Counted from the first letter of the stretch, positions 7,715 through 53,278 are shown. The stretch: DNA of 64,000 nucleotides from an uncultured Candidatus Saccharibacteria bacterium (GCA_964428615.1 CAYRXZ010000002.1:968-64967), one strand, 5' to 3'. Translations and numbers: made by a program. The notes: a model not told the origin generated them from the sequence alone.

Positions 7715-8833
7715 TTAATTAGCATTTATAGGCATTAAAATATAAAAACAAGATATATCTGTTGGTGATTTTATTAAAACTGGTTTATTTCCACCATTAA
7801 ATCCAAAAAATATATTATCTGAATTAATAGATTTAATTCCATCTATAATAAATCTCCAATTAAAAATTATTTCAACGCCCGCGCCCTTTATTTTCGCCGG
7901 TATTAAATAATTATTCTCTCCAAGTGATTGATTTGAAGAAAAAACTTTAATATTTTTTGAATTATCTTTTATAGAAATTTTTATCTCATTTAATTTATCC
8001 GTAAAAGAGCTTACTAATTTTAACGCTGAAATTAATTGCTCTTTTTCAAATATAGTTTCAGTTTCAAAAGATTGAGGAATAATTATTTGATAATCAGGAA
8101 ATTCACCACTAATTAAACGTGAAATAATTTCACAATTTTCATTTTTAAATAAAACCTGATTAGAATCAAAATAAATTTTTATTTCCCCATCTTCATTTTT
8201 AAAATTTCTTATTATTTCGTGTATTGTTTTTAAGGGAATTATAATTTTAAAATTATCTTCTATTTCTGTTTTAAATTGGGTATTTATTATTGTTTTTTCA
8301 GCAAGTCTAAAACTATCAGTAACAACAATTTTAAAATAATTATTTTGGAAATCAAAAAGTGCACCACTTAGTTCTGGTTTTATTTCTGAAATTTGACCAG
8401 CTCCAACGACAGACATAAAAGCGTTTTTAATTAAAGATGATGATATTTTAATAAATAAATCATTTTTTATTTGAGGAATTATTGGAAAATCATCTTTTTT
8501 TCCAATATGAATCTTGGCTTGATAATTATCTGTTTTTATAAATAAATAACCACCTTCAGTTTCAAGATTTATTCTTTCACTTTGAATATTATTTATAATT
8601 AAATTAAAAATATTAAATGGAATAGTAAAAATTCCACCTTCAACAACCTTACACGGAATAAATGCCGTAACTGCTATTTCAAGATTTGTGGCTAATAATT
8701 TTATTTTATTATCAATTGTTTCTAATAAAAAATTTTTTAAAACTGGTAAAGCGGCGGAATTATTATCCATTCCAACTTTTCCAATTATATCCAATCCTGT
8801 TTTAAGATTATTTTTTAAAATTATTATTTTCAT
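7715..8833 (-). CDS. dnaN: DNA polymerase III beta sliding clamp DnaN
   Basis: 372 aa, three-domain size. Lies immediately downstream of dnaA in the same orientation. N-terminus MKIIILKNNL.. is clamp-like. Sequence is divergent, so the call rests mostly on synteny and size. Confidence 0.75.
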   Translation of the reverse strand: MKIIILKNNLKTGLDIIGKVGMDNNSAALPVLKNFLLETIDNKIKLLATNLEIAVTAFIPCKVVEGGIFTIPFNIFNLIINNIQSERINLETEGGYLFIKTDNYQAKIHIGKKDDFPIIPQIKNDLFIKISSSLIKNAFMSVVGAGQISEIKPELSGALFDFQNNYFKIVVTDSFRLAEKTIINTQFKTEIEDNFKIIIPLKTIHEIIRNFKNEDGEIKIYFDSNQVLFKNENCEIISRLISGEFPDYQIIIPQSFETETIFEKEQLISALKLVSSFTDKLNEIKISIKDNSKNIKVFSSNQSLGENNYLIPAKIKGAGVEIIFNWRFIIDGIKSINSDNIFFGFNGGNKPVLIKSPTDISCFYILMPINAN

Positions 8834-9012
8834 ATATTTTTATAATAACTCCTATTATAATATATTAATAAATAATAGTAGTAGTTAGTGTGGTTAATTA
8901 TGTTAATTAGTTTTTAATATAATGTATTTATTGATTAAATTTTAAGTTTATTTTTTTATAACAACTTAATTAAAACTTAATTAATAGTGGAAAACTAAAA
9001 ATAATATTTTTA
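8834..9012. promoter_or_regulatory. dnaA-dnaN intergenic AT-rich region with DnaA-box-like motifs (TGTGGTTAA, AGTGGAAAA); candidate DNA-unwinding element and second half of a bipartite oriC
   Basis: About 85-90% AT over 180 bp. 9-mers one or two mismatches from the TGTGGATAA consensus. Repeated cttaatta motifs. Position is analogous to the Bacillus-type oriC between dnaA and dnaN. Confidence 0.4.
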
Positions 9013-10371
9013 TTAATTTTTATAAATATTATCTTTAATTAAAACAATTCTTTGTCCGAGATTTTGATTTTTATTTATTTCTCGAGATATTTTCTCACAC
9101 GCGTATATAGCGGTTGTATGGTCCCTTTTCCCTAATTTATCCCCAATATCATTATAAGACATATTTATTAATTCTCTTAATAAAAAAGCGGCAATTTGTC
9201 TTGGTTCAACAACACTTTTTTTCCTCGACCTATTTATTAAATCAGTTATTGTTATTTCATAAAAATCAGCTACAGCTTTGATAATTTGATTTCCGGTAAT
9301 ATTTTTTGCCGATTGTTGGATTATATTATTTATTATTTCTTCAACGGTTTTTGTGTCTAAATCAATATTTTTTACTTCTTGATAAAATAATATTTTATTA
9401 AGAATACCTTCTAATTCTCTTATATTTCTTTGAATTTTTGTAGAAATAAGAGAACAAACCTCATCTTTAAGTGAAACATTTTTTTCTTGGAGTTTATTTT
9501 TAATAATAGCAAGGCGCATTTCATAATCTGGATAAGTAATATCAACAATCATCCCGCCCTCAAACCGTGATCTAAGGCGCGCTTCAAGTGTTGGGATGGC
9601 CGCTGGGGGCCTATCAGAAGAAAGAATAATTTGTTTATTATTTTCATAAAGAACATTAAATGTATGAAAAAATTCTTCTTCACTTCTTTCTTTTCCACCA
9701 ATAAATTGTATATCATCTATTATTAAAACATCAATATTACGATATTTTTCTTTAATATCATCCATTCTTTTATTTCTTATTGCCCAAACAACATCGTTAA
9801 CAAATTTTTCCGACGGGACATATTTAATTTTAATTTTATTTTTATATTTTTCTTTAATTTCATTACCCATTGCTTGAATAAGATGAGTTTTGCCAAGTCC
9901 GGTCCCACCATAAATAAAAAATGGATTATATTTTTTCCCAACATTTTTAATTATCGCCGTTGTAGCGGCGTAAGCGAGTTCATTAGAAGAACCAACAACA
10001 AAGGAACTCATTGTATATCGTGGGTGAAGATTGGTTTCTAGATCTATTTTAAATTCCGGTAATGATTCTTGGTGAGGAAAATATTTTTTTTCTTCAATTT
10101 TAATTTCAACCCGTCCCTTATTTTCAAAAACAACAATATATTCAACCTTTTTAATAGTGTCGTCAAATTCTCTAAGCGCCTCCAATATTATTTTATTATA
10201 TTTATTTTCAACCCACTCTTTTGCAAAATTATTATTAAAACCAATAATAACCCTCCCATCATCCTCTTTTTTAATAAGACGACTATTTTTAAGCCATGTA
10301 AGAAAATTTGGTCTGGAAATTTGGAGTTCCAATTCAGCTAAAACAGATTGCCATGTTTTATTAAGATCCAT
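9013..10371 (-). CDS. dnaA: Chromosomal replication initiator DnaA
   Basis: AAA+ Walker A GGTGLGKTHLIQAMGNE, Walker B LIIDDIQF, sensor motifs, C-terminal DnaA-box-binding helix-turn-helix (..YNDIGDKLGKRDHTTAIYA..). Confidence 0.95.
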   Translation of the reverse strand: MDLNKTWQSVLAELELQISRPNFLTWLKNSRLIKKEDDGRVIIGFNNNFAKEWVENKYNKIILEALREFDDTIKKVEYIVVFENKGRVEIKIEEKKYFPHQESLPEFKIDLETNLHPRYTMSSFVVGSSNELAYAATTAIIKNVGKKYNPFFIYGGTGLGKTHLIQAMGNEIKEKYKNKIKIKYVPSEKFVNDVVWAIRNKRMDDIKEKYRNIDVLIIDDIQFIGGKERSEEEFFHTFNVLYENNKQIILSSDRPPAAIPTLEARLRSRFEGGMIVDITYPDYEMRLAIIKNKLQEKNVSLKDEVCSLISTKIQRNIRELEGILNKILFYQEVKNIDLDTKTVEEIINNIIQQSAKNITGNQIIKAVADFYEITITDLINRSRKKSVVEPRQIAAFLLRELINMSYNDIGDKLGKRDHTTAIYACEKISREINKNQNLGQRIVLIKDNIYKN

Positions 10372-10516
10372 AAATTTTTATTCTAAATTATTTCCTAATC
10401 TTATTTAAATCTAAAACTAAGTCAAATACCTCTAATGTTTCTAACATGTTAATTAATTGTGGAAAACTTTTAATAGATAATTTGATTTTTAAGTTTTTAT
10501 GTTTTATATTTAATCT
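10372..10516. promoter_or_regulatory. rpmH-dnaA divergent intergenic region with DnaA-box-like TTGTGGAAAA; candidate oriC / dnaA autoregulatory region
   Basis: AT-rich. TGTGGAAAA is one mismatch from the TGTGGATAA consensus. Classic rpmH-dnaA origin synteny. Confidence 0.4.
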
Positions 10517-10654
10517 ATGCCAAAAAGAACATATCAACCCAAAAAAAGAAAAAGGGCGAGGACTCACGGGTTTATAAAAAGAAACAGAACGGCGTCAGGA
10601 AGGAAGGTTATAAAAAGAAGAATTCAAAAGGGCAGAAAGAGAATTGCTCTTTAA
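10517..10654 (+). CDS. rpmH: 50S ribosomal protein L34
   Basis: Manual translation: [45 protein letters not shown]. Canonical L34 motifs (KRTYQP..KR.R.HGF..R...GRKV...RR.KGRK.L). Immediately upstream of rnpA. Missing from the ORF track because it is 45 aa. Confidence 0.9.
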
Positions 10655-10660
10655 AGTGTA

Positions 10661-10999
10661 ATGCTAAAAAAATTTTTTCGTCTTCCGATTCAAAATTGGA
10701 TGAAAGATAAAAAAATCAAAACGATTACCATTAAAGGTGATTTTTTTGTAGTAAAAATAAGAGACAATAATAAAGATTTCAGCCGATTTGGAGTTATAAT
10801 AAGCGCGAAAGTTTTTAAAAGAGCGGTAAGGCGCAACAAGCTTAAAAGAAAAATTTTTGAATTAATTCGCACAACCAAATTGATTGAAAAATTTTCCGGT
10901 AAAGATATTCTATTAAGTGTTTCACCACAAGCCGCTGAAGCGCAAGAGAGAATTATTATTCAGTCATTATTATTGGTTTTAAATAAAATTATAAAATGA
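10661..10999 (+). CDS. rnpA: Ribonuclease P protein component
   Basis: 112 aa, basic. rpmH-rnpA-yidC-jag synteny. RNR-like motif region (KRAVRRNKLKRKIFE). Confidence 0.8.
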   Translation: MLKKFFRLPIQNWMKDKKIKTITIKGDFFVVKIRDNNKDFSRFGVIISAKVFKRAVRRNKLKRKIFELIRTTKLIEKFSGKDILLSVSPQAAEAQERIIIQSLLLVLNKIIK

Positions 11000-11685
11000 T
11001 AAACCTTTTTAATAAATTTCTTTACGATCCACTTTTAAAGTCATTAGTTTTTTTATACCAGAAATTTTCTTTTCACGATTTAGGAATTGCGATTATTATT
11101 TTAACAATAATAATTAGGTTTATTTTATTTCCATTATTTTATAAAGGCGCCAAAGATCAAGCGATTATGCAACGCCTTTCACCTAAAATAAAAGAAATCC
11201 AAAAAAATCATAAAGATGATAAAGAGAAACAAACTCGGGCGCTTTTGGATTTATATAAAGAACACAAAGTAAATCCATTTTCTGGATTTTTATTACTTCT
11301 TGTCCAGTTGCCAATTTTAATCGCGCTTTATAAGGTTTTTTTAAACGGCCTTTCAGTAATTACACTAAACGGTCCGATAAATAATTTATTTTTAGGAATT
11401 ATAGATTTAAACCAAAGAAATATAGTACTTGTTGTTGTGGCGGCGGCTGTGCAGTATTATCAAGGGAAGTTGGCGCTGCCTAAAATAAATAAGCCATCAA
11501 ATGAGCTTGATATTGCCGAAAAGATGGGCAGGCAAATGGTTTTTATGGGACCGGTTTTAACTTTTGTATTTTTATATTTTTTTAATCTTCCGTCAGCTGT
11601 TGCGCTTTATTGGTTGACAACATCCATTTTTTCAGTTATTCAACAGATAATAATCAATAAAAGAATTAAAACGATGAATATATAA
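10996..11685 (+). CDS. yidC: Membrane protein insertase YidC (short Oxa1/YidC2-type)
   Basis: Multi-pass TM protein, 229 aa. Conserved synteny after rnpA. ATGA overlap with rnpA. Confidence 0.78.
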   Translation: MINLFNKFLYDPLLKSLVFLYQKFSFHDLGIAIIILTIIIRFILFPLFYKGAKDQAIMQRLSPKIKEIQKNHKDDKEKQTRALLDLYKEHKVNPFSGFLLLLVQLPILIALYKVFLNGLSVITLNGPINNLFLGIIDLNQRNIVLVVVAAAVQYYQGKLALPKINKPSNELDIAEKMGRQMVFMGPVLTFVFLYFFNLPSAVALYWLTTSIFSVIQQIIINKRIKTMNI

Positions 11686-35378: not shown

Positions 35379-35722
35379 TGGTGGAGATGGGGGTATTGAA
35401 ACCCCGTCCAAATGCTTTTCTAAAAAACTTCTACAAGCTTAGTCCCGATAGTTTGAAGAATTAAGAGATATAATCGGGACGAAAAACTCTTAACTCTTTT
35501 GCCTAATGGTCTCCCGGTTTTTGGCGGAAACCGGAACGAGCTCAAGTTATAACACCCTTGCCGCTAATATGAGCAATTAGCGAAGGATGCCGCATTTACG
35601 CAAAAGCGAATGCGGGAGCAACATTTCTGTTGGCAGTTATATATTTTTTGATTGGTTTAACGAGTCAATCGGCTCGGCTGCTGTTTTTTTGAAATGAACA
35701 TTTGTCGAAGCCTGGCATCCCC
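35379..35722 (-). ncRNA. ssrA: tmRNA (ssrA), ~344 nt, encoded tag ANRNVAPAFAFA
   Basis: Minus-strand 5' end GGGGAUGCCAGGCUUCGACAAA and 3' end GGACGGGGUUUCAAUACCCCCAUCUCCACCA (tRNA-like T-arm, acceptor, encoded CCA). Internal ORF GCC AAC AGA AAT GTT GCT CCC GCA TTC GCT TTT GCG TAA. Lies 7 nt downstream of smpB. Confidence 0.85.
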
Positions 35723-43877: not shown

Positions 43878-46328
43878 ATGGATATAAAAAATCAAAAAAT
43901 TGAAAAACAGGAAATAACAGATGAGCTTCGCGAATGTTATCTTGATTATGCGATGTCGGTTATAGTTTCGCGTGCTTTGCCTGACTTAAGAGACGGATTA
44001 AAACCAGTTCAAAGAAGAATTTTATGGACAATGTGGGAAGAAGGATTGGGATATTCGGCAAAATTCAGAAAATCGGCAAATGTTACAGGAACTGTTTTGG
44101 CGCGCTATCATCCGCATGGCGATATGGCAGTTTATGACGCTCTTGCCAGAATGGCGCAAGATTTTTCTTTAAGATATCCCCTTATTAAAGGACAGGGGAA
44201 CTGGGGCAGTATTGATGGTGATGCACCCGCCGCCCAACGTTACACCGAGGCCAAACTCACAAAAATTTCCGAGGAACTTTTATTTGATATTGAAAAAGAA
44301 ACCGTAGATTGGCAGCAGAATTATGATTCAACAAGAGAAGAACCAAAAGTCTTACCTTCAAAACTCCCAAACCTTTTACTTAATGGTTCATTTGGTATTG
44401 CCGTGGGAATGTCGACAAATATTCCTCCACATAATCTTTCTGAAATAGTAGACGCTTCAATTTATTTGGCAGATCACCCAAAAAGCGGGAATGAAGAACT
44501 TACGCAATTTATCCAAGGACCGGATTTTCCGACTGGTGGAATTATTTACGATAAAAAAGCGATTATTGAAGCATATGCCTCGGGTAAGGGAGCAATAACT
44601 TGCAGAGCTAAAACCGAAATAGAAGAAAGAAAGGCGGGGCAATTCAATATTGTAGTTACAGAAATTCCTTATCAAGTGAACAAGTCGGAACTTATAATTA
44701 AAATTGCCGAATTAGTTACAGATAAAAGAATAGAAGGAGTTCGCGATTTGCGCGATGAGAGCGACAGAGATGGTATGAGAATAGTGGTTGAACTTAAAAA
44801 TGACGCCAACCCTCAGAAAATTTTAAATCAGCTTTTCAAGCACACCGATCTACAGAAAAACTTTAATCTTAATATGATTGCGCTAGTAAGTGGAATTCAG
44901 CCGCAGCTTTTGTCTCTAAAGGAGGTTTTGGCTGGCCACTTGGAACATCGTAGGTTAGTGGTTGAAAAACGCGCTAAATATGAACTTAAAAAAGCTAAAG
45001 AACGCGAGCATATTCTTGAAGGTTTGGCAAAAGCACTTTCAAAAATAGATGAGATAATTTCAACAATTAAAAAATCAAAAGACCGTTCGGACGCTCATGA
45101 GAATTTGGTAAAGAAATTTAAATTTACCGATATCCAAGCGACTGCCATTTTGGAAATGAGACTCCAAAACTTGGCGGCTTTAGAAAGAAACAAAATAGAA
45201 GCTGAGCTTGAAGAGAAAAGAAAAATAATACGTGAACTTGAAATTTTACTTAAGAGTCCGGAAAAAATTCTTAAGGTTATCAAAGAAGAAATGCTTGAGC
45301 TTAAGACTATTTATGGTGATAGCCGTCGGACAAGGCTCGTTTCTTCCGGTTTAACAGAGTTTAAGGAAGAGGATTTAATTCCACAAGAAGAAGTTATGAT
45401 TACACTTTCGGGCAGTGGCTACATCAAAAGAGTCCCGCCTTCGACAATTAAAGTTCAGCATCGCGGCGGCAAAGGGGTTGTTGGCTCCGATGTCAGCGAG
45501 GAAGATTTTATAAGTCATTTTATTTCAGCGGATACTCATGATAATATTTTATTCTTTACAAATAGGGGCAGAGCTTTTCAAACGAAGGTTTATGAAATTC
45601 CAGCCGGTTCACGCACAAGCAAGGGCAAGGTAATTCAAAACTTTTTAGAAATTCCGACAGATGAAACAATAAGCGCCATCATTAGTTATTCGGATAAAAA
45701 AAATTCAGGTGGCGGAAAGTTTTTGGTGATGGTGACAAAAAAGGGAATAATTAAGAAAACCGGTTTGGAAAACTTTGAAAATATTCGCCGGAACGGAATA
45801 GCGGCGATTAACTTACAAAAAGGAGATGAACTTAAATGGGTTGAATTATCTTCGGGTAGGGACGAAATTATTTTGATTACTGCTAATGGTAAGGCGATAA
45901 GATTTAAGGAATCTCAATTAAGGTCGATGGGTAGAACAGCCGCCGGCGTGAAAGCTATTAAGATAAAAGGTAATGACTTTATTGCCGGGCTTGATATAAT
46001 AAATAGAGGTGATAAAACAAAAACAATAAGTGAAAAATTATTAATAATTACCGAAAATGGTTTCGCCAAACAGACACCATTAAAAGAATATAAAGTTCAA
46101 AGCCGTGGAGGACAAGGAATTAAAACGGCTAAAATTACCGAAAAAACAGGTAAAATAGTTACAGCGAAAATAATAGAAGGAGAAGAAGAACTTATGGCGC
46201 TTTCAAATAAGGGGCAGATTATAAAAACAAAAATTTCGGATATTAGAACGGCCGGCCGCGCTACTTCTGGAGTAAAAGTAATGAGGTTGAATAGCGGAGA
46301 TAAGGTGGCGGGAGCGGCAATATTGTAA
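43878..46328 (+). CDS. gyrA: DNA gyrase subunit A
   Basis: Active-site Tyr region (..AMRYTEAKL-like: QRYTEAKL), GyrA box QRRGGKG, C-terminal beta-pinwheel repeats. 816 aa. Confidence 0.95.
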
Positions 46329-49357: not shown

Positions 49358-49702
49358 ATGATAAAGTCTTTTCTAGAAAATATTTTTTTGAGTTTTAATA
49401 ATGTAGCGCATGGTGCTCCTGGTATAGGCGGTTTTCCTGGCGGTGGAACACTTCCAAATCCACTTGGAGAAGGCAGCACTTTTATTACAGTAATAAATAA
49501 TATTTTAAATTATTTAATATACATCAGCGCGCCGATTTTAGCGATAATGATTTTAGTCGGCGGTTTTCAGATTTTAACCGCTAAAGGCGAACCCGGAAAG
49601 ATAGTTTCTGGAAAACAGACGATAACATACGCCATTATAGGATTTCTTATAATTTTGGTTTCAAAAGGTGTGGCACTTATTCTTTTGAAAATAATGCAAT
49701 AA
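49358..49702 (+). CDS. TrbC/VirB2-like small two-helix protein, paralogue 5 (Gly/Pro-rich N-terminal segment)
   Basis: Core ..ILNYLIYISAPILAIMILVGGFQILTAKGEPGKIVSGKQTITYAIIGFLIILVS. The most divergent member. Confidence 0.45.
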   Translation: MIKSFLENIFLSFNNVAHGAPGIGGFPGGGTLPNPLGEGSTFITVINNILNYLIYISAPILAIMILVGGFQILTAKGEPGKIVSGKQTITYAIIGFLIILVSKGVALILLKIMQ

Positions 49703-49760: not shown

Positions 49761-50174
49761 TCGCACTCGTACGATTTCTACGAGTGTCGTCGTTTTTACG
49801 CCTTGTGCGTTTATTAGGCGTAATCTCCCGGCGGGTGCTTCGCCGGTCCAACTTTCCCATCCGGCGGGCATATCGTAGATGATACGCTTACCGTCGAGTT
49901 GGTTTGCTATTGCTCTGTATGGAGCATTCCCACGCAAGCGGTGCAGTGTACCTGGACCGCCATAGATAGTGAGTACTTCATTGCATTTGCCCTTTTCGTC
50001 GCAGGGCGGGAGACAGAATGTTTGGGGTTGGAGTTGTGCTACCCGCGTTTCAGTCGGCGGCTTACTCTTGTCATCTTTTGTCACTATTACTATTGTTATC
50101 GCAATAATAACAACCGAAACAATTAGCAACGCCGCGCTTTTACCGCTAAGTATTTTTACTTTATTAACTGCCAT
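49758..50174 (-). CDS. Membrane-anchored hypothetical protein (N-terminal TM, CxxxC..C segment), GC-rich, co-oriented with the SPFH gene
   Basis: About 50-55% GC. TM helix AALLIVSVVIIAITIVIV. Start overlaps the SPFH stop by 11 nt. Possible NfeD-like partner, but no clear match. Confidence 0.45.
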   Translation of the reverse strand: MAVNKVKILSGKSAALLIVSVVIIAITIVIVTKDDKSKPPTETRVAQLQPQTFCLPPCDEKGKCNEVLTIYGGPGTLHRLRGNAPYRAIANQLDGKRIIYDMPAGWESWTGEAPAGRLRLINAQGVKTTTLVEIVRVR

Positions 50175-51243
50175 TTTTTCTCTCCTTCCAATTTTTTAAC
50201 AGATTAGACAGCAGATCTAAACCCTCAAGAGAAATTATTTTTCTGTCAATCGTGGCCTTGCCGGTCATTGCCGTTTCCGCTAAATTAACCGCCAGTTGCT
50301 CAGGGAGTTTCATATTCACATACTCGTTAATCATCTTTACTTTTTGCTCTTGTCTTTTTTGCGCTGCTTCCATTTCAGCCCCAGCTTGCCTCACGCTTTC
50401 CAGCGCTTTTTTGGTTGCTTCTGAAAAATCGACATCTGCAAGTCTGAAGATAGCGATATCAATCCCATAGAGTTTCTCTATGGATGAGAGTTTTTCTTTC
50501 AATTCCGCCTCCTGCTCAAGGAGAAAAGAAGCTCTTGTGATGTTTTGTTCATAAAAAGACAGTTCATCAAGAACAATTTCTTTTTCTCCTTTCTCTTCTT
50601 TTAACACTATCGGCAACTGCCATCTCGACTTTTCTATTTTTTCCGCTATCTCATTATATTCTTCGCCTTTAACCGATTTTTCTATGTCTACCAAATACTC
50701 TTTCAGGCACTCTTCATCCATTTCATATTTTTCTACTTTTCCCTTGTTATCCCTTACTGGATTTACCCAATGATGAGGAGGTTTTTCCAGTCTTAAAACA
50801 CAGTTAATGAAAATTTCCAATGCTCTTCTTGACCGAATAAAGTTATCGCCTTCTTTAATACCGGCGATTTTCCCCAATTCGCTCTTCACAGCATCGGCCA
50901 TTCCATCAACAATTGTTTTTTCCTGCATCTCGATAAAAACATCAAGATTATCGGGCCGCCACTGAATCGAGCCGGCCGTCTTAATTTCAAGCCGATCCAT
51001 AGAAAAAACATCGAAAGAAAGTGATTTTGTTTGTAATTCTCTAGAAAAAAGCACTACTTTGTCTATGAAAGGCGCAATCGTATTTAGCCCTTCCCTGAGA
51101 ATCCTCACCTTTCCATTTCTTTTAATCCGCTCCTTAAATCGCGTTACTATCCCGAAATATACTGTCGGGATAATAACAATAGCATTAAGCGCTATCACAA
51201 CGGCTATTACAATCAATCCTATCAAGATTATCCATCCCATCAC
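50164..51243 (-). CDS. SPFH/band-7 (stomatin/prohibitin/flotillin-like) membrane protein with long C-terminal coiled coil
   Basis: N-terminal TM, then an SPFH pattern (PTVYFGIVTRFKER...GLNTIAPFIDKVVLFSRELQT..FSMDRLEIKTAGSIQWR). Strong Shine-Dalgarno ggaaggagg. Elevated GC. Confidence 0.7.
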   Translation of the reverse strand: MMGWIILIGLIVIAVVIALNAIVIIPTVYFGIVTRFKERIKRNGKVRILREGLNTIAPFIDKVVLFSRELQTKSLSFDVFSMDRLEIKTAGSIQWRPDNLDVFIEMQEKTIVDGMADAVKSELGKIAGIKEGDNFIRSRRALEIFINCVLRLEKPPHHWVNPVRDNKGKVEKYEMDEECLKEYLVDIEKSVKGEEYNEIAEKIEKSRWQLPIVLKEEKGEKEIVLDELSFYEQNITRASFLLEQEAELKEKLSSIEKLYGIDIAIFRLADVDFSEATKKALESVRQAGAEMEAAQKRQEQKVKMINEYVNMKLPEQLAVNLAETAMTGKATIDRKIISLEGLDLLSNLLKNWKERKNGS

Positions 51244-51333
51244 TCTTCCTCCTTCCGGCCAATGGCCTTTCTATATTTTTATTTGCCTTTCTTATATACT
51301 TTTTAAAGTCCGCAAGAGCGGGCTTTTCCCACG

Positions 51334-51352
51334 CTTGTAATGCTATAAAATA
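51334..51352. promoter_or_regulatory. Perfect palindrome atgctata-aaa-tatagcat about 90-110 bp upstream of the SPFH gene; candidate operator
   Basis: 8-bp perfect inverted repeat with a 3-bp spacer. Shares a GCTATA half-site with the CGCTATAGCG palindromes. Confidence 0.3.
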
Positions 51353-51522
51353 TAGCATAAAATAATAAAAAAGTCAATCCACACACTTAATTTAACGATA
51401 ATTAAGTACGGAGTATGGATTTTCGCTCCCGTTAACATATTGGCAGAAAGGCGAGAGGCGCGGAAAAAGAAAAAAAGTATTTTCAGGTTCAATTTGGAGA
51501 TAAAAATTTTTATGAGTTTTTA

Positions 51523-51900
51523 TTGTCTATAAGATTAACTCATGCGAAATCAAAGACAGTTAAAGATCTAGATATCCCAAACAATTATTTTGCAGATTTT
51601 TTAAGGGGCTGCATTGACGGAGATGGTTCTATTGGCGCGTTTAAGCATCCCGAAAGTAAACATCCTCAATTGCGAATAAGATTATATTCCGCAAGCGTAC
51701 CATTTTTACAATGGATTAAGAAAGAAGTTTTGTATAATACAAAAATAAAAACCGGCTGGATTGAAGAAAAAGAAGGTATTAATGTATTAGCTTATGCAAA
51801 AGAGGACTCTATTAAATTATTAAATTTTGTTTATTATAAAAACGTTGAATATTATTTAAAACGTAAATATAATATTGCGAAAGCATTTTTGCGGGTATAG
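51523..51900 (+). CDS. Free-standing single-motif LAGLIDADG-family homing-endonuclease-like protein (TTG start; 3' end overlaps tRNA-Leu by ~10 nt)
   Basis: FADFLRGCIDGDGSIGAF matches the LAGLIDADG signature at an I-CreI-like position. 125 aa, so short. Confidence 0.6.
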   Translation: MSIRLTHAKSKTVKDLDIPNNYFADFLRGCIDGDGSIGAFKHPESKHPQLRIRLYSASVPFLQWIKKEVLYNTKIKTGWIEEKEGINVLAYAKEDSIKLLNFVYYKNVEYYLKRKYNIAKAFLRV

Positions 51901-51972
51901 CCAAATTGGTAAAGGCGCATGGCTTAGAACCATGTGAGGAAACTCTTGGAGGTTCGAGTCCTCCTACCCGCA
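51891..51972 (+). tRNA. tRNA-Leu (anticodon TAG), type II with long variable arm
   Basis: Acceptor GCGGGTA/TACCCGC. Anticodon stem CATGG/CCATG with loop CTTAGAA. Variable arm tgaggaaactcttggag. T-arm GGTTCGAGTCC. Confidence 0.8.
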
Positions 51973-51976
51973 CAAT

Positions 51977-52933
51977 CTATTTTCTTCTTCTGCCGTGGAA
52001 AGTCTGATGGATTTCGCGGAGTTCTTTGTTTGTTAAATGAGTATAGATTTGAGTTGTGGAGACATTGGCATGGCCTAATAATTCTTGCACCGAACGCAAA
52101 TCCGCTCCGCCGATGAGTAAATCGGTGGCGAAAAGATGGCGAATAGTATGCGGATGTACTTTCTGCGGGATGCCGGCCTTTCTGGAATAAAAATCAACAA
52201 TTCTTTGAATGGTGCGGGGGAGTATTCTTCCGATTATTTTTGGGTTATCCGCTTTTGTTAAACTTATAAACAAAGCTTCTTCGGCATCGCCGCGTTTTTC
52301 CAAATAATTTTTAATTGCAGTTTTTGCGCGTTCGGAAAGAAAAACTATTCTTAGTTTTCCGCCTTTGCCGCGAATACTAATTTCTCCACGTTTTAAATCC
52401 AAATGTCGATTAAGCGCGCAAAGTTCGGAAATACGGAGACCGGTTGAAAACAGCATTTCTAAAATAGCTTTATCACGGAGAGAACGCAAGTCAGAACCTT
52501 TAGGCGCGGCAAGCAGTCTTTCTAGGTCGGCATATTCAATGATTTCAATCTGTCGGGTGGGAATTTTGGGCAGCTCTATTTTGTCCGGAGACATCACTTC
52601 AATATCGCGTTTGTTTATGTATTTCAGAAAATTTCTAATGGCAATGACATAATAACTTTGGGTAATTTTTTTTATATTTCTTCTTGCTAGAAAAAGCCGG
52701 AATTCGCGAATAATATCCGGTGTAATACTTTTTTCGGTTTTTATTTTCCCGAATCCCAAAAATGCTTTTAAATAGCGATCGTAATTTTCACGAGTTTTAA
52801 TTGAGCGGTTTTTTTCTATTTCCAGATAATTTAGGTAGTCATTAAGAAGCTTTTTTATATCTGCCATATTATTGTTGATTTTACCATTTTTAGTGGTATA
52901 ATTAAATGAAAGCTGAAAATGTTTATTGTTCAA
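51977..52933 (-). CDS. Tyrosine recombinase, XerC/XerD family (3' end 5 nt from the tRNA-Leu 3' end)
   Basis: Catalytic region ..GLRISELCALN.., HPHTIRHLFATDLL..G.DLR.VQELLGHANVSTTQIYTHL. The likely true start is the internal MADIKKLL.. (core-binding domain). Confidence 0.85.
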   Translation of the reverse strand: MNNKHFQLSFNYTTKNGKINNNMADIKKLLNDYLNYLEIEKNRSIKTRENYDRYLKAFLGFGKIKTEKSITPDIIREFRLFLARRNIKKITQSYYVIAIRNFLKYINKRDIEVMSPDKIELPKIPTRQIEIIEYADLERLLAAPKGSDLRSLRDKAILEMLFSTGLRISELCALNRHLDLKRGEISIRGKGGKLRIVFLSERAKTAIKNYLEKRGDAEEALFISLTKADNPKIIGRILPRTIQRIVDFYSRKAGIPQKVHPHTIRHLFATDLLIGGADLRSVQELLGHANVSTTQIYTHLTNKELREIHQTFHGRRRK

Positions 52934-53278
52934 CTTATTTTTTATTTCCTCTCCAATATACTCGCCTTGTTGGTAGCGACATATTTTATAGAGGGGTTTA
53001 TTCTTGAGCCGGGCCTGAATAGCTTGGTTTTAACAGCGGTTGCTTTAACCCTTATAAACACACTTATAAGGCCGATTATCAAGCTTATTCTTACACCGAT
53101 AATCCTTTTTACTTTTGGGTTGGGGGTTATAATAGTAAATACCTTGATGCTCTATTTACTTGACAAACTTTTGCCAAACATTACTATAACAGGTGTATTG
53201 CCGCTTTTTTACGCAACACTGATTATTAGTGTGGTCAATCTTGTGGTTAATTTTTCAGCAAGAAAAATAACAAGTTAA
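52919..53278 (+). CDS. DUF360-like (phage-holin-4 superfamily) small four-TM membrane protein
   Basis: LINTLIRPIIKLILTPIILFTFGLGVIIVNTLMLYLL resembles the DUF360 family. Recall-based. Confidence 0.45.
   Translation: MFIVQLIFYFLSNILALLVATYFIEGFILEPGLNSLVLTAVALTLINTLIRPIIKLILTPIILFTFGLGVIIVNTLMLYLLDKLLPNITITGVLPLFYATLIISVVNLVVNFSARKITS

What the first reader, a model, noticed from the sequence alone, without database searches (positions are those of the whole stretch)
51523..52933. Free-standing LAGLIDADG homing-endonuclease-like gene overlapping tRNA-Leu(TAG), abutted by a tyrosine recombinase
A 125-aa single-motif LAGLIDADG ORF (FLRGCIDGDGSI) ends inside the 5' acceptor stem of tRNA-Leu(TAG). 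A XerC/D-family tyrosine recombinase terminates 5 nt beyond the tRNA 3' end on the opposite strand. Homing endonucleases normally live inside introns or inteins, so a free-standing copy pressed against a tRNA, next to a recombinase and a compositionally foreign island, suggests the remnant of an integrated mobile element. An alternative is a domesticated endonuclease. The recombinase may instead be the housekeeping Xer dimer-resolution enzyme. The two readings make different predictions (see checks).
Basis: partly seen in the sequence, partly recalled or inferred. Interest (0 to 1): 0.5.

Follow-up and report, generated by a model that had tools for sequence, protein, structure and literature searches.

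The report
Decayed tRNA-Leu-linked homing endonuclease gene
The small LAGLIDADG gene is the broken back half of a selfish endonuclease gene that sits against the tRNA-Leu(UAG) gene in hundreds of Patescibacteria (CPR) species, next to a leftover half-tRNA that now looks like its promoter; the neighbouring recombinase is an unrelated Xer-type housekeeping enzyme.

Summary
The coordinates are right. The ORF (51523-51900) has its stop codon at tRNA-Leu(TAG) nucleotides 8-10, and a tyrosine recombinase gene ends 3-4 nt after the tRNA.

The ORF is not a single-motif endonuclease. It is the 3' two-thirds of a ~210-aa two-motif LAGLIDADG gene. Homology runs in frame from 51436. The promoter -10 box, the start codon and codons 1-56, which hold motif 1, are deleted, apparently between two ATTGGCA repeats.

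At least 517 species genomes, nearly all Patescibacteria, encode the family. In 95 of 99 distinct intact copies the gene abuts tRNA-Leu, usually overlapping it. Most copies are preceded by a tRNA-Leu 5' half that stops at the anticodon and forms a TTGGCA-17-TATAAT promoter for a leaderless transcript.

Matched filled and empty sites, at least six differently decayed copies, and dN/dS of 0.06-0.16 in intact copies fit an intron-less homing element. The cleavage target is inferred, not shown.

The recombinase is Xer-type and is a neighbour only in relatives. No att repeat lies in the window. The region is core chromosome, about 40 kb from dnaA.

I found no published description of this tRNA-linked architecture.

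The parts
51436..51900 (+). 5'-truncated remnant of a ~210-aa two-motif LAGLIDADG gene. The open frame is homologous to family residues ~57-210, and the stop is at 51898-51900.
   Evidence: In-frame translation HIGRKARGAEKEKKYFQVQFGDKNFYEFLLSIRL... aligns with full-length relatives. A TAA stop lies immediately upstream at 51433-51435.
51523..51900 (+).
   Evidence: No Shine-Dalgarno sequence within 20 nt, and no -10 element follows the retained TTGGCA (read sequence).
51439..51447 (+). ATTGGCAGA, the proposed deletion junction. It is the first stretch of family homology (codons I-G-R). It is identical in type to the -35/D-loop element ATTGGCA(A/G)A of the family promoter.
   Evidence: Intact relatives carry both copies about 200 nt apart: L082 at 5965 and 6172, and L240 in its promoter and at its K-I-G-R codons.
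51598..51633 (+). Second LAGLIDADG motif, FLRGCIDGDGSI, with the invariant catalytic Asp. It is the only motif left in this copy.
   Evidence: Alignment A1: D117, G118, D119 and G120 are invariant. Motif 1 (AIGLIATDG, D25 at least 90% conserved) is absent from the window.
51845..51873 (+). Promoter-like TTGAAT-17-TATAAT inside the 3' end of the remnant, 17 nt upstream of tRNA +1. It is the probable present promoter of the tRNA.
   Evidence: 10 of 12 matches. The same element sits at the same place in L082, L240 and L081. It is not a family-wide feature.
51891..51973 (+). tRNA-Leu(UAG), intact. Its first 10 nt are overlapped by the remnant ORF.
51977..52933 (-). Xer-type tyrosine recombinase. 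The likely ATG start is at 52867, giving 296 aa. It is not part of the endonuclease element.
   Evidence: Pfam Phage_integrase 4.6e-39 plus SAM-like N domain. NCBIfam XerC, XerD and XerA. PDB XerA and XerD. Synteny in relatives.
50164..51243 (-). SPFH/Band_7 gene, the left neighbour. It serves as a synteny marker shared with the intact-HEG locus L240 and the independently decayed locus L081.
   Evidence: Its promoter-like site lies at 51377-51349 (-).

Best explanation
The ORF is a dead, 5'-truncated copy of a two-domain LAGLIDADG homing-endonuclease gene. The family lives at the tRNA-Leu(UAG) gene across Patescibacteria.

The intact unit reads, 5' to 3':
- A leftover tRNA-Leu 5' half (nt 1-36, ending at the anticodon). 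Its D-loop, TTGGCA, serves as the -35 element.
- A TATAAT -10 box at the junction.
- A start codon 6-8 nt later, so the transcript would be leaderless.
- A ~630-nt ORF.
- A complete tRNA-Leu. Its first 9-36 nt usually contain the ORF's stop codon.

I infer that the element entered the tRNA gene at the anticodon loop without an intron. The tRNA was kept whole by a duplicated 5' half, and the displaced half was kept as promoter for both the endonuclease and the tRNA. The element persists by homing within populations and decays repeatedly.

In this window, a deletion between the ATTGGCA of the promoter and an ATTGGCA inside the gene removed the -10 box, the start codon and codons 1-56. The tRNA survives on a lineage-specific promoter inside the gene's 3' end.

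The Xer recombinase is an unrelated chromosomal neighbour.

Shown: the truncation, the family architecture, the tRNA linkage, filled and empty sites, decayed copies, and the Xer identity.
Inferred: endonuclease activity, the target site, promoter use, and the deletion mechanism.
For: Truncation:
- Homologues are ~210 aa with two motifs. The window matches residues 57-210 only.
- The intact relative L240 has the same Band_7 left neighbour.
- Both ATTGGCA copies are present in intact relatives.

Fold:
- The AF2 model of a full-length relative has pLDDT 92. The best PDB matches are I-Tsp061I (TM 0.68-0.70), I-DmoI, I-SceI and I-AniI.
- Both catalytic Asp residues are conserved.

tRNA linkage:
- 75 of 80 species loci chosen by protein alone have tRNA-Leu next to the stop codon.
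- Of 99 distinct intact genes, 95 have it. In 71 of the 89 same-strand cases the stop lies inside the tRNA, and in 36 it is at nt 8-10 as in the window.

Half-tRNA remnant and promoter:
- 65 of 92 upstream regions carry the 30-nt motif at 19 or more of 30 matches (maximum 17 in shuffles). It mostly ends 6 nt before the start codon.
- Remnants that extend to the tRNA 5' end align to real tRNA-Leu 5' halves with scores of 15-27, against a shuffle maximum of 11-15.
- The remnant reads TTGAG where the downstream tRNA is Leu(GAG).
- The promoter scan gives 11 of 12 matches in L082.

Filled and empty sites with homologous flanks: L109 vs L131, and L002 vs L120.

Patchiness and decay:
- Among low-GC loci, about 23 are full, about 20 are empty, and several are decayed.
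- Decayed copies with different lesions: the window, L081, L083/L124, L179, L090 and L105.

Other:
- Purifying selection on intact copies, dN/dS 0.06-0.16.
- No intron ribozyme.
- Xer identity and synteny. No att repeat.
Against: - No cleavage data exist, and the target is unknown.
- Identical tRNA-Leu genes occur with and without the gene. The intact tRNA sequence alone therefore cannot be the target unless carriers are protected in some other way.
- Protein similarity broadly follows host taxon labels, and dS is saturated between lineages. Spread therefore looks mostly vertical, and recent cross-lineage homing is not shown.
- 'Empty' sites could be precise losses rather than never-invaded sites.
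- The left side of the window's deletion junction shares only ATATTGGCA with relatives, so the repeat-mediated mechanism is plausible but not proven.
- Promoter calls are consensus matches in AT-rich DNA (5.5 expected by chance in 1.8 kb).
- Conserved bases in the promoter spacer are not explained by promoter function.
Confidence: 0.8

Rival explanations
1. The ORF, the tRNA and the recombinase are the edge of an integrase-mobilised island that integrated into tRNA-Leu, and the recombinase is its integrase.
For: A tyrosine recombinase gene ends 3-4 nt from the tRNA 3' end. tRNA genes are common integration sites (general knowledge).
Against: - No second copy of the tRNA 3' end lies in the 64-kb window, even allowing 3 mismatches.
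- The recombinase matches the XerC, XerD and XerA models and structures, not arm-binding phage integrases.
- It lies near the tRNA in only 8 of the 80 genome-scan loci (plus L082), at variable distance and about 62% identity, like a vertically inherited neighbour.
- Flanking gene order is conserved with L082, and GC is ordinary.
Confidence: 0.03
2. The truncated ORF is still a working protein: a single-domain LAGLIDADG that homodimerises like I-CreI, either active or domesticated.
For: - The 153 remaining codons carry no stop or frameshift.
- The second motif and its catalytic Asp are intact.
- dN/dS against the independently truncated L081 copy is 0.15.
- There is weak sequence similarity to I-CreI variants.
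Against: - The -10 box and the start codon are gone.
- The only start is a TTG with no ribosome-binding site nearby.
- Pfam scores the ORF below threshold.
- In relatives the second domain packs against a first domain that is missing here.
- The low dN/dS is equally explained by recent, independent truncations. L081's close relative P0003 is intact.
Confidence: 0.07
3. At family level, the LAGLIDADG protein is a domesticated host factor that acts on tRNA-Leu expression or processing, not a mobile homing endonuclease. The window has simply lost it.
For: - Strong purifying selection.
- Similarity largely tracks taxonomy.
- It forms an invariant operon-like unit with an essential tRNA.
- The upstream DNA motif is conserved beyond what a promoter needs and could be an operator.
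Against: - Presence is patchy among genomes with identical tRNAs.
- At least six decayed copies carry different lesions.
- Both catalytic Asp residues are retained. Known domesticated LAGLIDADG proteins often lose them (established knowledge, e.g. WhiA).
- The half-tRNA scar is the signature of an insertion event.
Confidence: 0.15

Closest known systems
Monomeric two-domain LAGLIDADG homing endonucleases of archaeal rRNA introns (I-Tsp061I, I-DmoI) and I-SceI
   Same: Same fold and size: about 200 aa, two alpha-beta-beta-alpha-beta-beta-alpha domains. Both motifs carry the acidic catalytic residue. Foldseek TM is 0.52-0.70 with E down to 8.5e-11.
   Different: Sequence identity is only 11-18%. 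Those enzymes are encoded in introns. This family is free-standing with no ribozyme and is tied to a tRNA gene. The window copy has only the second domain.
LAGLIDADG genes in rRNA introns, and group I introns in tRNA anticodon loops, of Patescibacteria (PMC11270868; PMC13011429)
   Same: Same phylum and same endonuclease superfamily. As with the tRNA introns, the insertion point is the anticodon loop: the remnant ends at nt 36.
   Different: The papers describe intron-borne elements. The tRNA introns mostly lack endonuclease genes, those found in Patescibacteria were HNH, and tRNA-Leu(UAG) is not among the hosts. Here there is no intron. The tRNA is kept intact by a duplicated 5' half.
Free-standing phage homing endonucleases and 'intronless homing' (T4 Seg/Mob enzymes, e.g. 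SegB in the tRNA cluster). From my own knowledge, not checked here.
   Same: The endonuclease gene lies between genes, next to a conserved target gene. It shows presence/absence polymorphism and needs no splicing.
   Different: Those are GIY-YIG or HNH enzymes in phage genomes. This is a LAGLIDADG in a cellular chromosome with a half-tRNA scar. Phage relatives of this family are only 26-33% identical.
Mobile ORF elements of fungal mitochondria that insert into a gene and carry a replacement copy of the displaced gene end (e.g. Allomyces atp6). From my own knowledge, not checked here.
   Same: The logic is the same. The host gene is kept functional by a duplicated segment, and the displaced fragment remains beside the endonuclease ORF.
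   Different: There the host gene codes for protein and the duplicated part is the 3' end. Here the host gene is a tRNA, the displaced part is the 5' half, and that part appears reused as a promoter.
tRNA-targeting integrative elements (tyrosine integrase plus att duplication of the tRNA 3' end)
   Same: A tRNA gene is the landing site, and a partial tRNA duplication flanks the insert.
   Different: The duplicated part here is the 5' half. No integrase belongs to the unit, the insert is a single 0.7-kb gene, and no 3'-end repeat exists.

Membership tests
LAGLIDADG homing endonuclease (two-domain, monomeric) | Two LAGLIDADG motifs, each ending in a catalytic Asp/Glu | tested here: not met
   The window copy keeps only motif 2 (51598-51633). 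Motif 1 was deleted with codons 1-56. Full-length relatives meet the feature: D25 is at least 90% conserved and D119 is invariant.
LAGLIDADG homing endonuclease (two-domain, monomeric) | Pfam LAGLIDADG model at gathering score | tested here: not met
   The window ORF scores 16.8 bits against a cut-off of 22.5. Most full-length relatives carry a precomputed PF14528 hit.
LAGLIDADG homing endonuclease (two-domain, monomeric) | Tandem alpha-beta-beta-alpha-beta-beta-alpha fold | tested here: met
   Tested on the full-length relative P0003 with alignment A1: pLDDT 92, pTM 0.90. The top PDB matches are all LAGLIDADG enzymes. By alignment, the window fragment corresponds to part of domain 1 plus domain 2.
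LAGLIDADG homing endonuclease (two-domain, monomeric) | Site-specific double-strand cleavage of a long target | not testable with these tools
   Needs purified protein and DNA substrates.
LAGLIDADG homing endonuclease (two-domain, monomeric) | Mobility signature: the same site is occupied or empty in related genomes, with decayed copies | tested here: met
   Filled/empty pairs are L109 vs L131 and L002 vs L120. About 23 loci are full and about 20 empty among low-GC loci. Decayed copies carry different lesions.
Group I intron-encoded endonuclease in a tRNA anticodon loop | Self-splicing ribozyme around the ORF | tested here: not met
   No intron family was found in window 50900-52300 at E up to 1, or in 8 related loci at gathering score. 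The ORF fills almost the whole insert.
Group I intron-encoded endonuclease in a tRNA anticodon loop | Insertion inside the anticodon loop | tested here: met
   In relatives the leftover 5' half ends at the anticodon (…TTTAG|TATAAT), and its anticodon matches the downstream tRNA. The remnant itself is deleted in the window.
tRNA-integrating genomic island with tyrosine integrase | Direct repeat of the tRNA 3' end (attL/attR) | tested here: not met
   There is one match only, the tRNA itself, with up to 3 mismatches allowed in 64 kb. One search shows no relevant repeat.
tRNA-integrating genomic island with tyrosine integrase | Island cargo absent from relatives, or foreign composition | tested here: not met
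   Gene order is shared with L082. GC is 0.35-0.41.
Xer chromosome-dimer-resolution recombinase | Tyrosine-recombinase catalytic domain plus SAM-like N domain, with best matches to Xer models | tested here: met
   Pfam. NCBIfam XerA_Arch 226.5 bits, above its cut-off of 220. XerC (235 bits) and XerD (228 bits) are the top hits but fall below their equivalog cut-offs. PDB XerA and XerD at 4e-38.
Xer chromosome-dimer-resolution recombinase | A cognate dif site near the terminus | not tested
   The window holds dnaA and dnaN, so it is the origin region. A terminus dif site would lie outside it.

The most novel reading that the evidence does not exclude
The family is an undescribed kind of intron-less invader of a tRNA gene.
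- It is a LAGLIDADG element that entered the anticodon loop of tRNA-Leu(UAG).
- It keeps the tRNA whole through a duplicated 5' half.
- It has turned the displaced half-tRNA into the shared promoter, and perhaps an operator, of a leaderless endonuclease-tRNA transcript.
- Because the stop codon usually lies inside the tRNA, RNase P processing would leave a non-stop endonuclease mRNA. That would couple endonuclease dosage to tRNA maturation.

The window shows the decay stage of this cycle.
Probability: 0.45. Interest if true: 0.7.

Novelty: new variant of a known kind. Interest (0 to 1): 0.55.

Why it matters
For this window the practical result is an annotation correction. The ORF is a pseudogene fragment, the recombinase is Xer, and there is no island.

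The wider result is that hundreds of Patescibacteria species carry a compact endonuclease gene fused to their tRNA-Leu(UAG) locus, together with a half-tRNA scar. If the model holds, it shows a way for a homing element to occupy an essential RNA gene without a self-splicing intron. It is also a case of a gene fragment reused as a promoter, in a phylum already known for unusual intron and endonuclease content.

The family would also offer small (about 210 aa) meganuclease scaffolds with a guessable target.

Tried and rejected
- A 12-mer search for tRNA fragments upstream of the gene found almost nothing. A 20-nt match to each locus's own tRNA was significant in only 7 of 89 loci. The remnant is a different tRNA-Leu sequence type from the functional tRNA, and it only became visible by reading the upstream regions.\n- Infernal on stretches ending at the remnant did not call a truncated tRNA. 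The output was noise.\n- I proposed that the 3' end of the gene carries the tRNA promoter in the whole family. This is rejected: scores equal those of shuffles. It holds only for the window's subclade.\n- My first strict regex for the motif was mis-spaced. An ungapped consensus scan replaced it.\n- The metagenome tRNA-pattern scan pulled in many high-GC non-Patescibacteria loci. These had to be set aside before counting occupancy.\n- The exact-sequence look-up of P0001, the 99% identical copy, found no contig. I therefore have no independent assembly of the truncated state.\n- Phage and viral collections hold only distant (26-33% identical) relatives.\n- Literature searches found no description of this architecture.

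Full report
**1. What is at the coordinates**

The ORF 51523..51900 (+, 125 aa, TTG start) exists and contains FLRGCIDGDGSI. ARAGORN places tRNA-Leu(tag) at 51891..51973, and Rfam scores it 66.8 bits. The ORF's TAG stop is tRNA nt 8-10. A 318-aa ORF on the minus strand (51977..52933) has a Phage_integrase domain (4.6e-39) and a SAM-like N domain, and it ends 3-4 nt beyond the tRNA.

**2. The ORF is a fragment**

- Pfam matches it to LAGLIDADG_3 only below threshold (16.8 vs 22.5 bits).
- A search of 5.8 billion proteins gave 228 homologues. Nearly all are ~210 aa and come from Patescibacteria/CPR metagenomes. The window ORF covers only their C-terminal 125 residues.
- Translating upstream in the same frame continues the homology to 51436 (HIGRKARGAEKEKKYFQVQFGDKNFYEFLL...). 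A stop follows, and beyond it there is no similarity in any frame.
- Full-length relatives have two motifs: AIGLIATDG (D25 at least 90% conserved) and LRGCIDGDG (D119 invariant).
- AlphaFold2 folds a full-length relative into two alpha-beta-beta-alpha-beta-beta-alpha domains (pLDDT 92). The best solved matches are I-Tsp061I, I-DmoI, I-SceI and I-AniI.
- The window copy lacks residues 1-56, which include motif 1.

**3. The tRNA overlap is a property of the family**

The best 80 are almost all Patescibacteria.
- In 75 of those 80 loci a tRNA-Leu lies at the gene's stop codon.
- Over all fetched loci, 95 of 99 distinct intact genes have it: 85 are Leu(TAG) on the same strand, 6 are Leu(TAG) on the opposite strand, 3 are Leu(GAG) and 1 is Leu(CAG).
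- In 71 of the 89 same-strand cases the stop codon is inside the tRNA. In 36 it sits at nt 8-10 exactly as here, and in 3 it is the anticodon itself.

**4. A half-tRNA lies upstream of intact copies**

- Reading the upstream regions shows a conserved motif, (A)TTGGCAGACGCTATATGGTTTAG|TATAAT. It is followed 6-8 nt later by the start codon.
- 65 of 92 distinct upstream regions match it at 19 or more of 30 positions. Shuffled sequences reach at most 17.
- The motif corresponds to the D-loop, the D-stem, the 5' strand of the anticodon stem and the anticodon of a tRNA-Leu.
- In several loci it extends to the acceptor end (e.g. GCTGGGGTGGCGAAACTGGCAGACGC...). These extended remnants align to real tRNA-Leu 5' halves far better than shuffles do.
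- Where the downstream tRNA is Leu(GAG), the remnant reads TTGAG.
- The motif is also a near-consensus sigma-70 promoter, TTGGCA-17-TATAAT (11 of 12 matches in L082). Its spacing puts the transcription start on the start codon, which implies a leaderless mRNA. This is an inference.
- Rfam finds no intron ribozyme in the window region or in eight related loci.

**5. Filled and empty sites**

L002 (occupied) and L120 (empty) share the upstream terminator hairpin and the downstream flank. In L120 the tRNA follows the hairpin directly. In L002 that position holds the 38-nt half-tRNA, then TATAAT, the ORF and a complete host-type tRNA. L109 and L131 show the same arrangement.

**6. Occupancy and decay**

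- Among low-GC loci retrieved by a tRNA pattern alone, about 23 carry a full gene and about 20 carry none. Some genomes with identical tRNAs differ in occupancy.
- Decayed copies carry different lesions:
  - L081 has an internal deletion plus a frameshift.
  - L083 and L124 keep only the last 26 codons, and L179 keeps residues 106-212.
  - L090 shows only traces.
  - L105 keeps the promoter but almost none of the ORF.
  - The window has a 5' deletion.
- Intact close pairs show dN/dS of 0.06-0.16.
- Protein similarity broadly follows taxon labels.

This pattern fits a selfish gene that is maintained where active and lost repeatedly. It does not show recent transfer between distant lineages.

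**7. How the window copy broke**

Intact relatives have ATTGGCA(A/G)A twice: once as the -35 element and once about 200 nt downstream at the codons for K-I-G-(R/K) (L082 at 5965 and 6172; also L240). In the window, family homology begins exactly at ATTGGCAGA (51439-51447). That stretch is preceded by AT, as in L081's promoter. A deletion between the two repeats would remove the spacer, the -10 box, the start codon and codons 1-56, which is the observed state. This is plausible but not proven.

A TTGAAT-17-TATAAT element sits inside the remnant's 3' end, 17 nt before the tRNA (51845-51873). It is shared with L082, L240 and L081 but is not a family-wide feature. It probably lets this lineage's tRNA do without the upstream promoter.

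**8. The recombinase and the 'island'**

- The best family matches are XerC, XerD and XerA, and the XerA model passes its cut-off. The best structures are XerA and XerD.
- The recombinase occurs downstream of the tRNA only in the window's closer relatives. There it lies 0.3-2.3 kb away, at about 62% identity, sometimes with another gene in between.
- The window holds no second copy of the tRNA 3' end.
- The window contains dnaA and dnaN in a low-GC stretch with a skew turn, so this is the origin-proximal core chromosome.
- The gene order gyrA, solute-binding protein, pilin-like genes, endonuclease, tRNA, Xer recurs in L082.

**9. What remains open**

- The cleavage target is not known. Because identical tRNAs occur with and without the gene, the intact tRNA alone cannot be the target.
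- Bases in the promoter spacer (…ACGC…G..TTAG) are conserved beyond what a promoter needs. They could be a binding site for the protein itself or half of its recognition site.
- Six loci have the tRNA inverted.

**10. Literature**

[quoted passage not shown] It does not describe this tRNA-Leu-linked, intron-less arrangement.

Noticed in passing
window 7715-10371 and 8001-11000: dnaN (7715-8833, minus) and dnaA (9013-10371, minus) lie in the lowest-GC stretch of the window (0.21-0.28), at the cumulative GC-skew minimum. The window probably spans the replication origin.
   Followed up: partly
window 35379-35722 (-): A tmRNA gene with tag peptide ANRNVAPAFAFA. It is relevant only to the speculative idea that RNase P processing would leave non-stop endonuclease mRNAs in relatives.
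   Followed up: no
L082 1-592 vs window 43878-46328: The relative's gyrA carries an intein (Intein_splicing hit). The window's 816-aa GyrA shows none. This is another selfish element that is variably present in this lineage.
   Followed up: no
L028, L030, L038, L051, L063, L076: In these loci the tRNA-Leu(TAG) sits on the opposite strand immediately after the endonuclease stop codon. L028, L030, L038, L051 and L076 still keep the upstream half-tRNA/promoter motif; L063 could not be checked because its contig starts inside the gene.
   Followed up: no
L105 3220-3301: The half-tRNA promoter is retained 51 nt upstream of the tRNA. Only the first ~10 and last ~7 codons of the endonuclease are left. 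This suggests the promoter is kept for the sake of the tRNA.
   Followed up: partly
L109 / L195, about 85 nt upstream of the endonuclease start: The half-tRNA remnant is interrupted by a GC-rich hairpin-like insert (GGGAGACGAGATTACCCCTCTCGG) and has lost its anticodon-stem part.
   Followed up: no
window 49358-49702 and L082 2034-3598: Small T4SS-pilin-like (PF18895) genes lie upstream of the locus in both the window and its relative.
   Followed up: no
window 52919-53278 (+): A 119-aa four-TM 'phage holin 4_2' family ORF (PF04020, 9e-18) overlaps the annotated 5' end of the Xer ORF. This supports the later ATG (52867) as the real Xer start.
   Followed up: partly
L085-L200 (high-GC loci): High-GC (0.61-0.71) soil-metagenome contigs share the same 34-nt tRNA-Leu(TAG) pattern as the Patescibacteria loci, and none carries the endonuclease.
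   Followed up: partly
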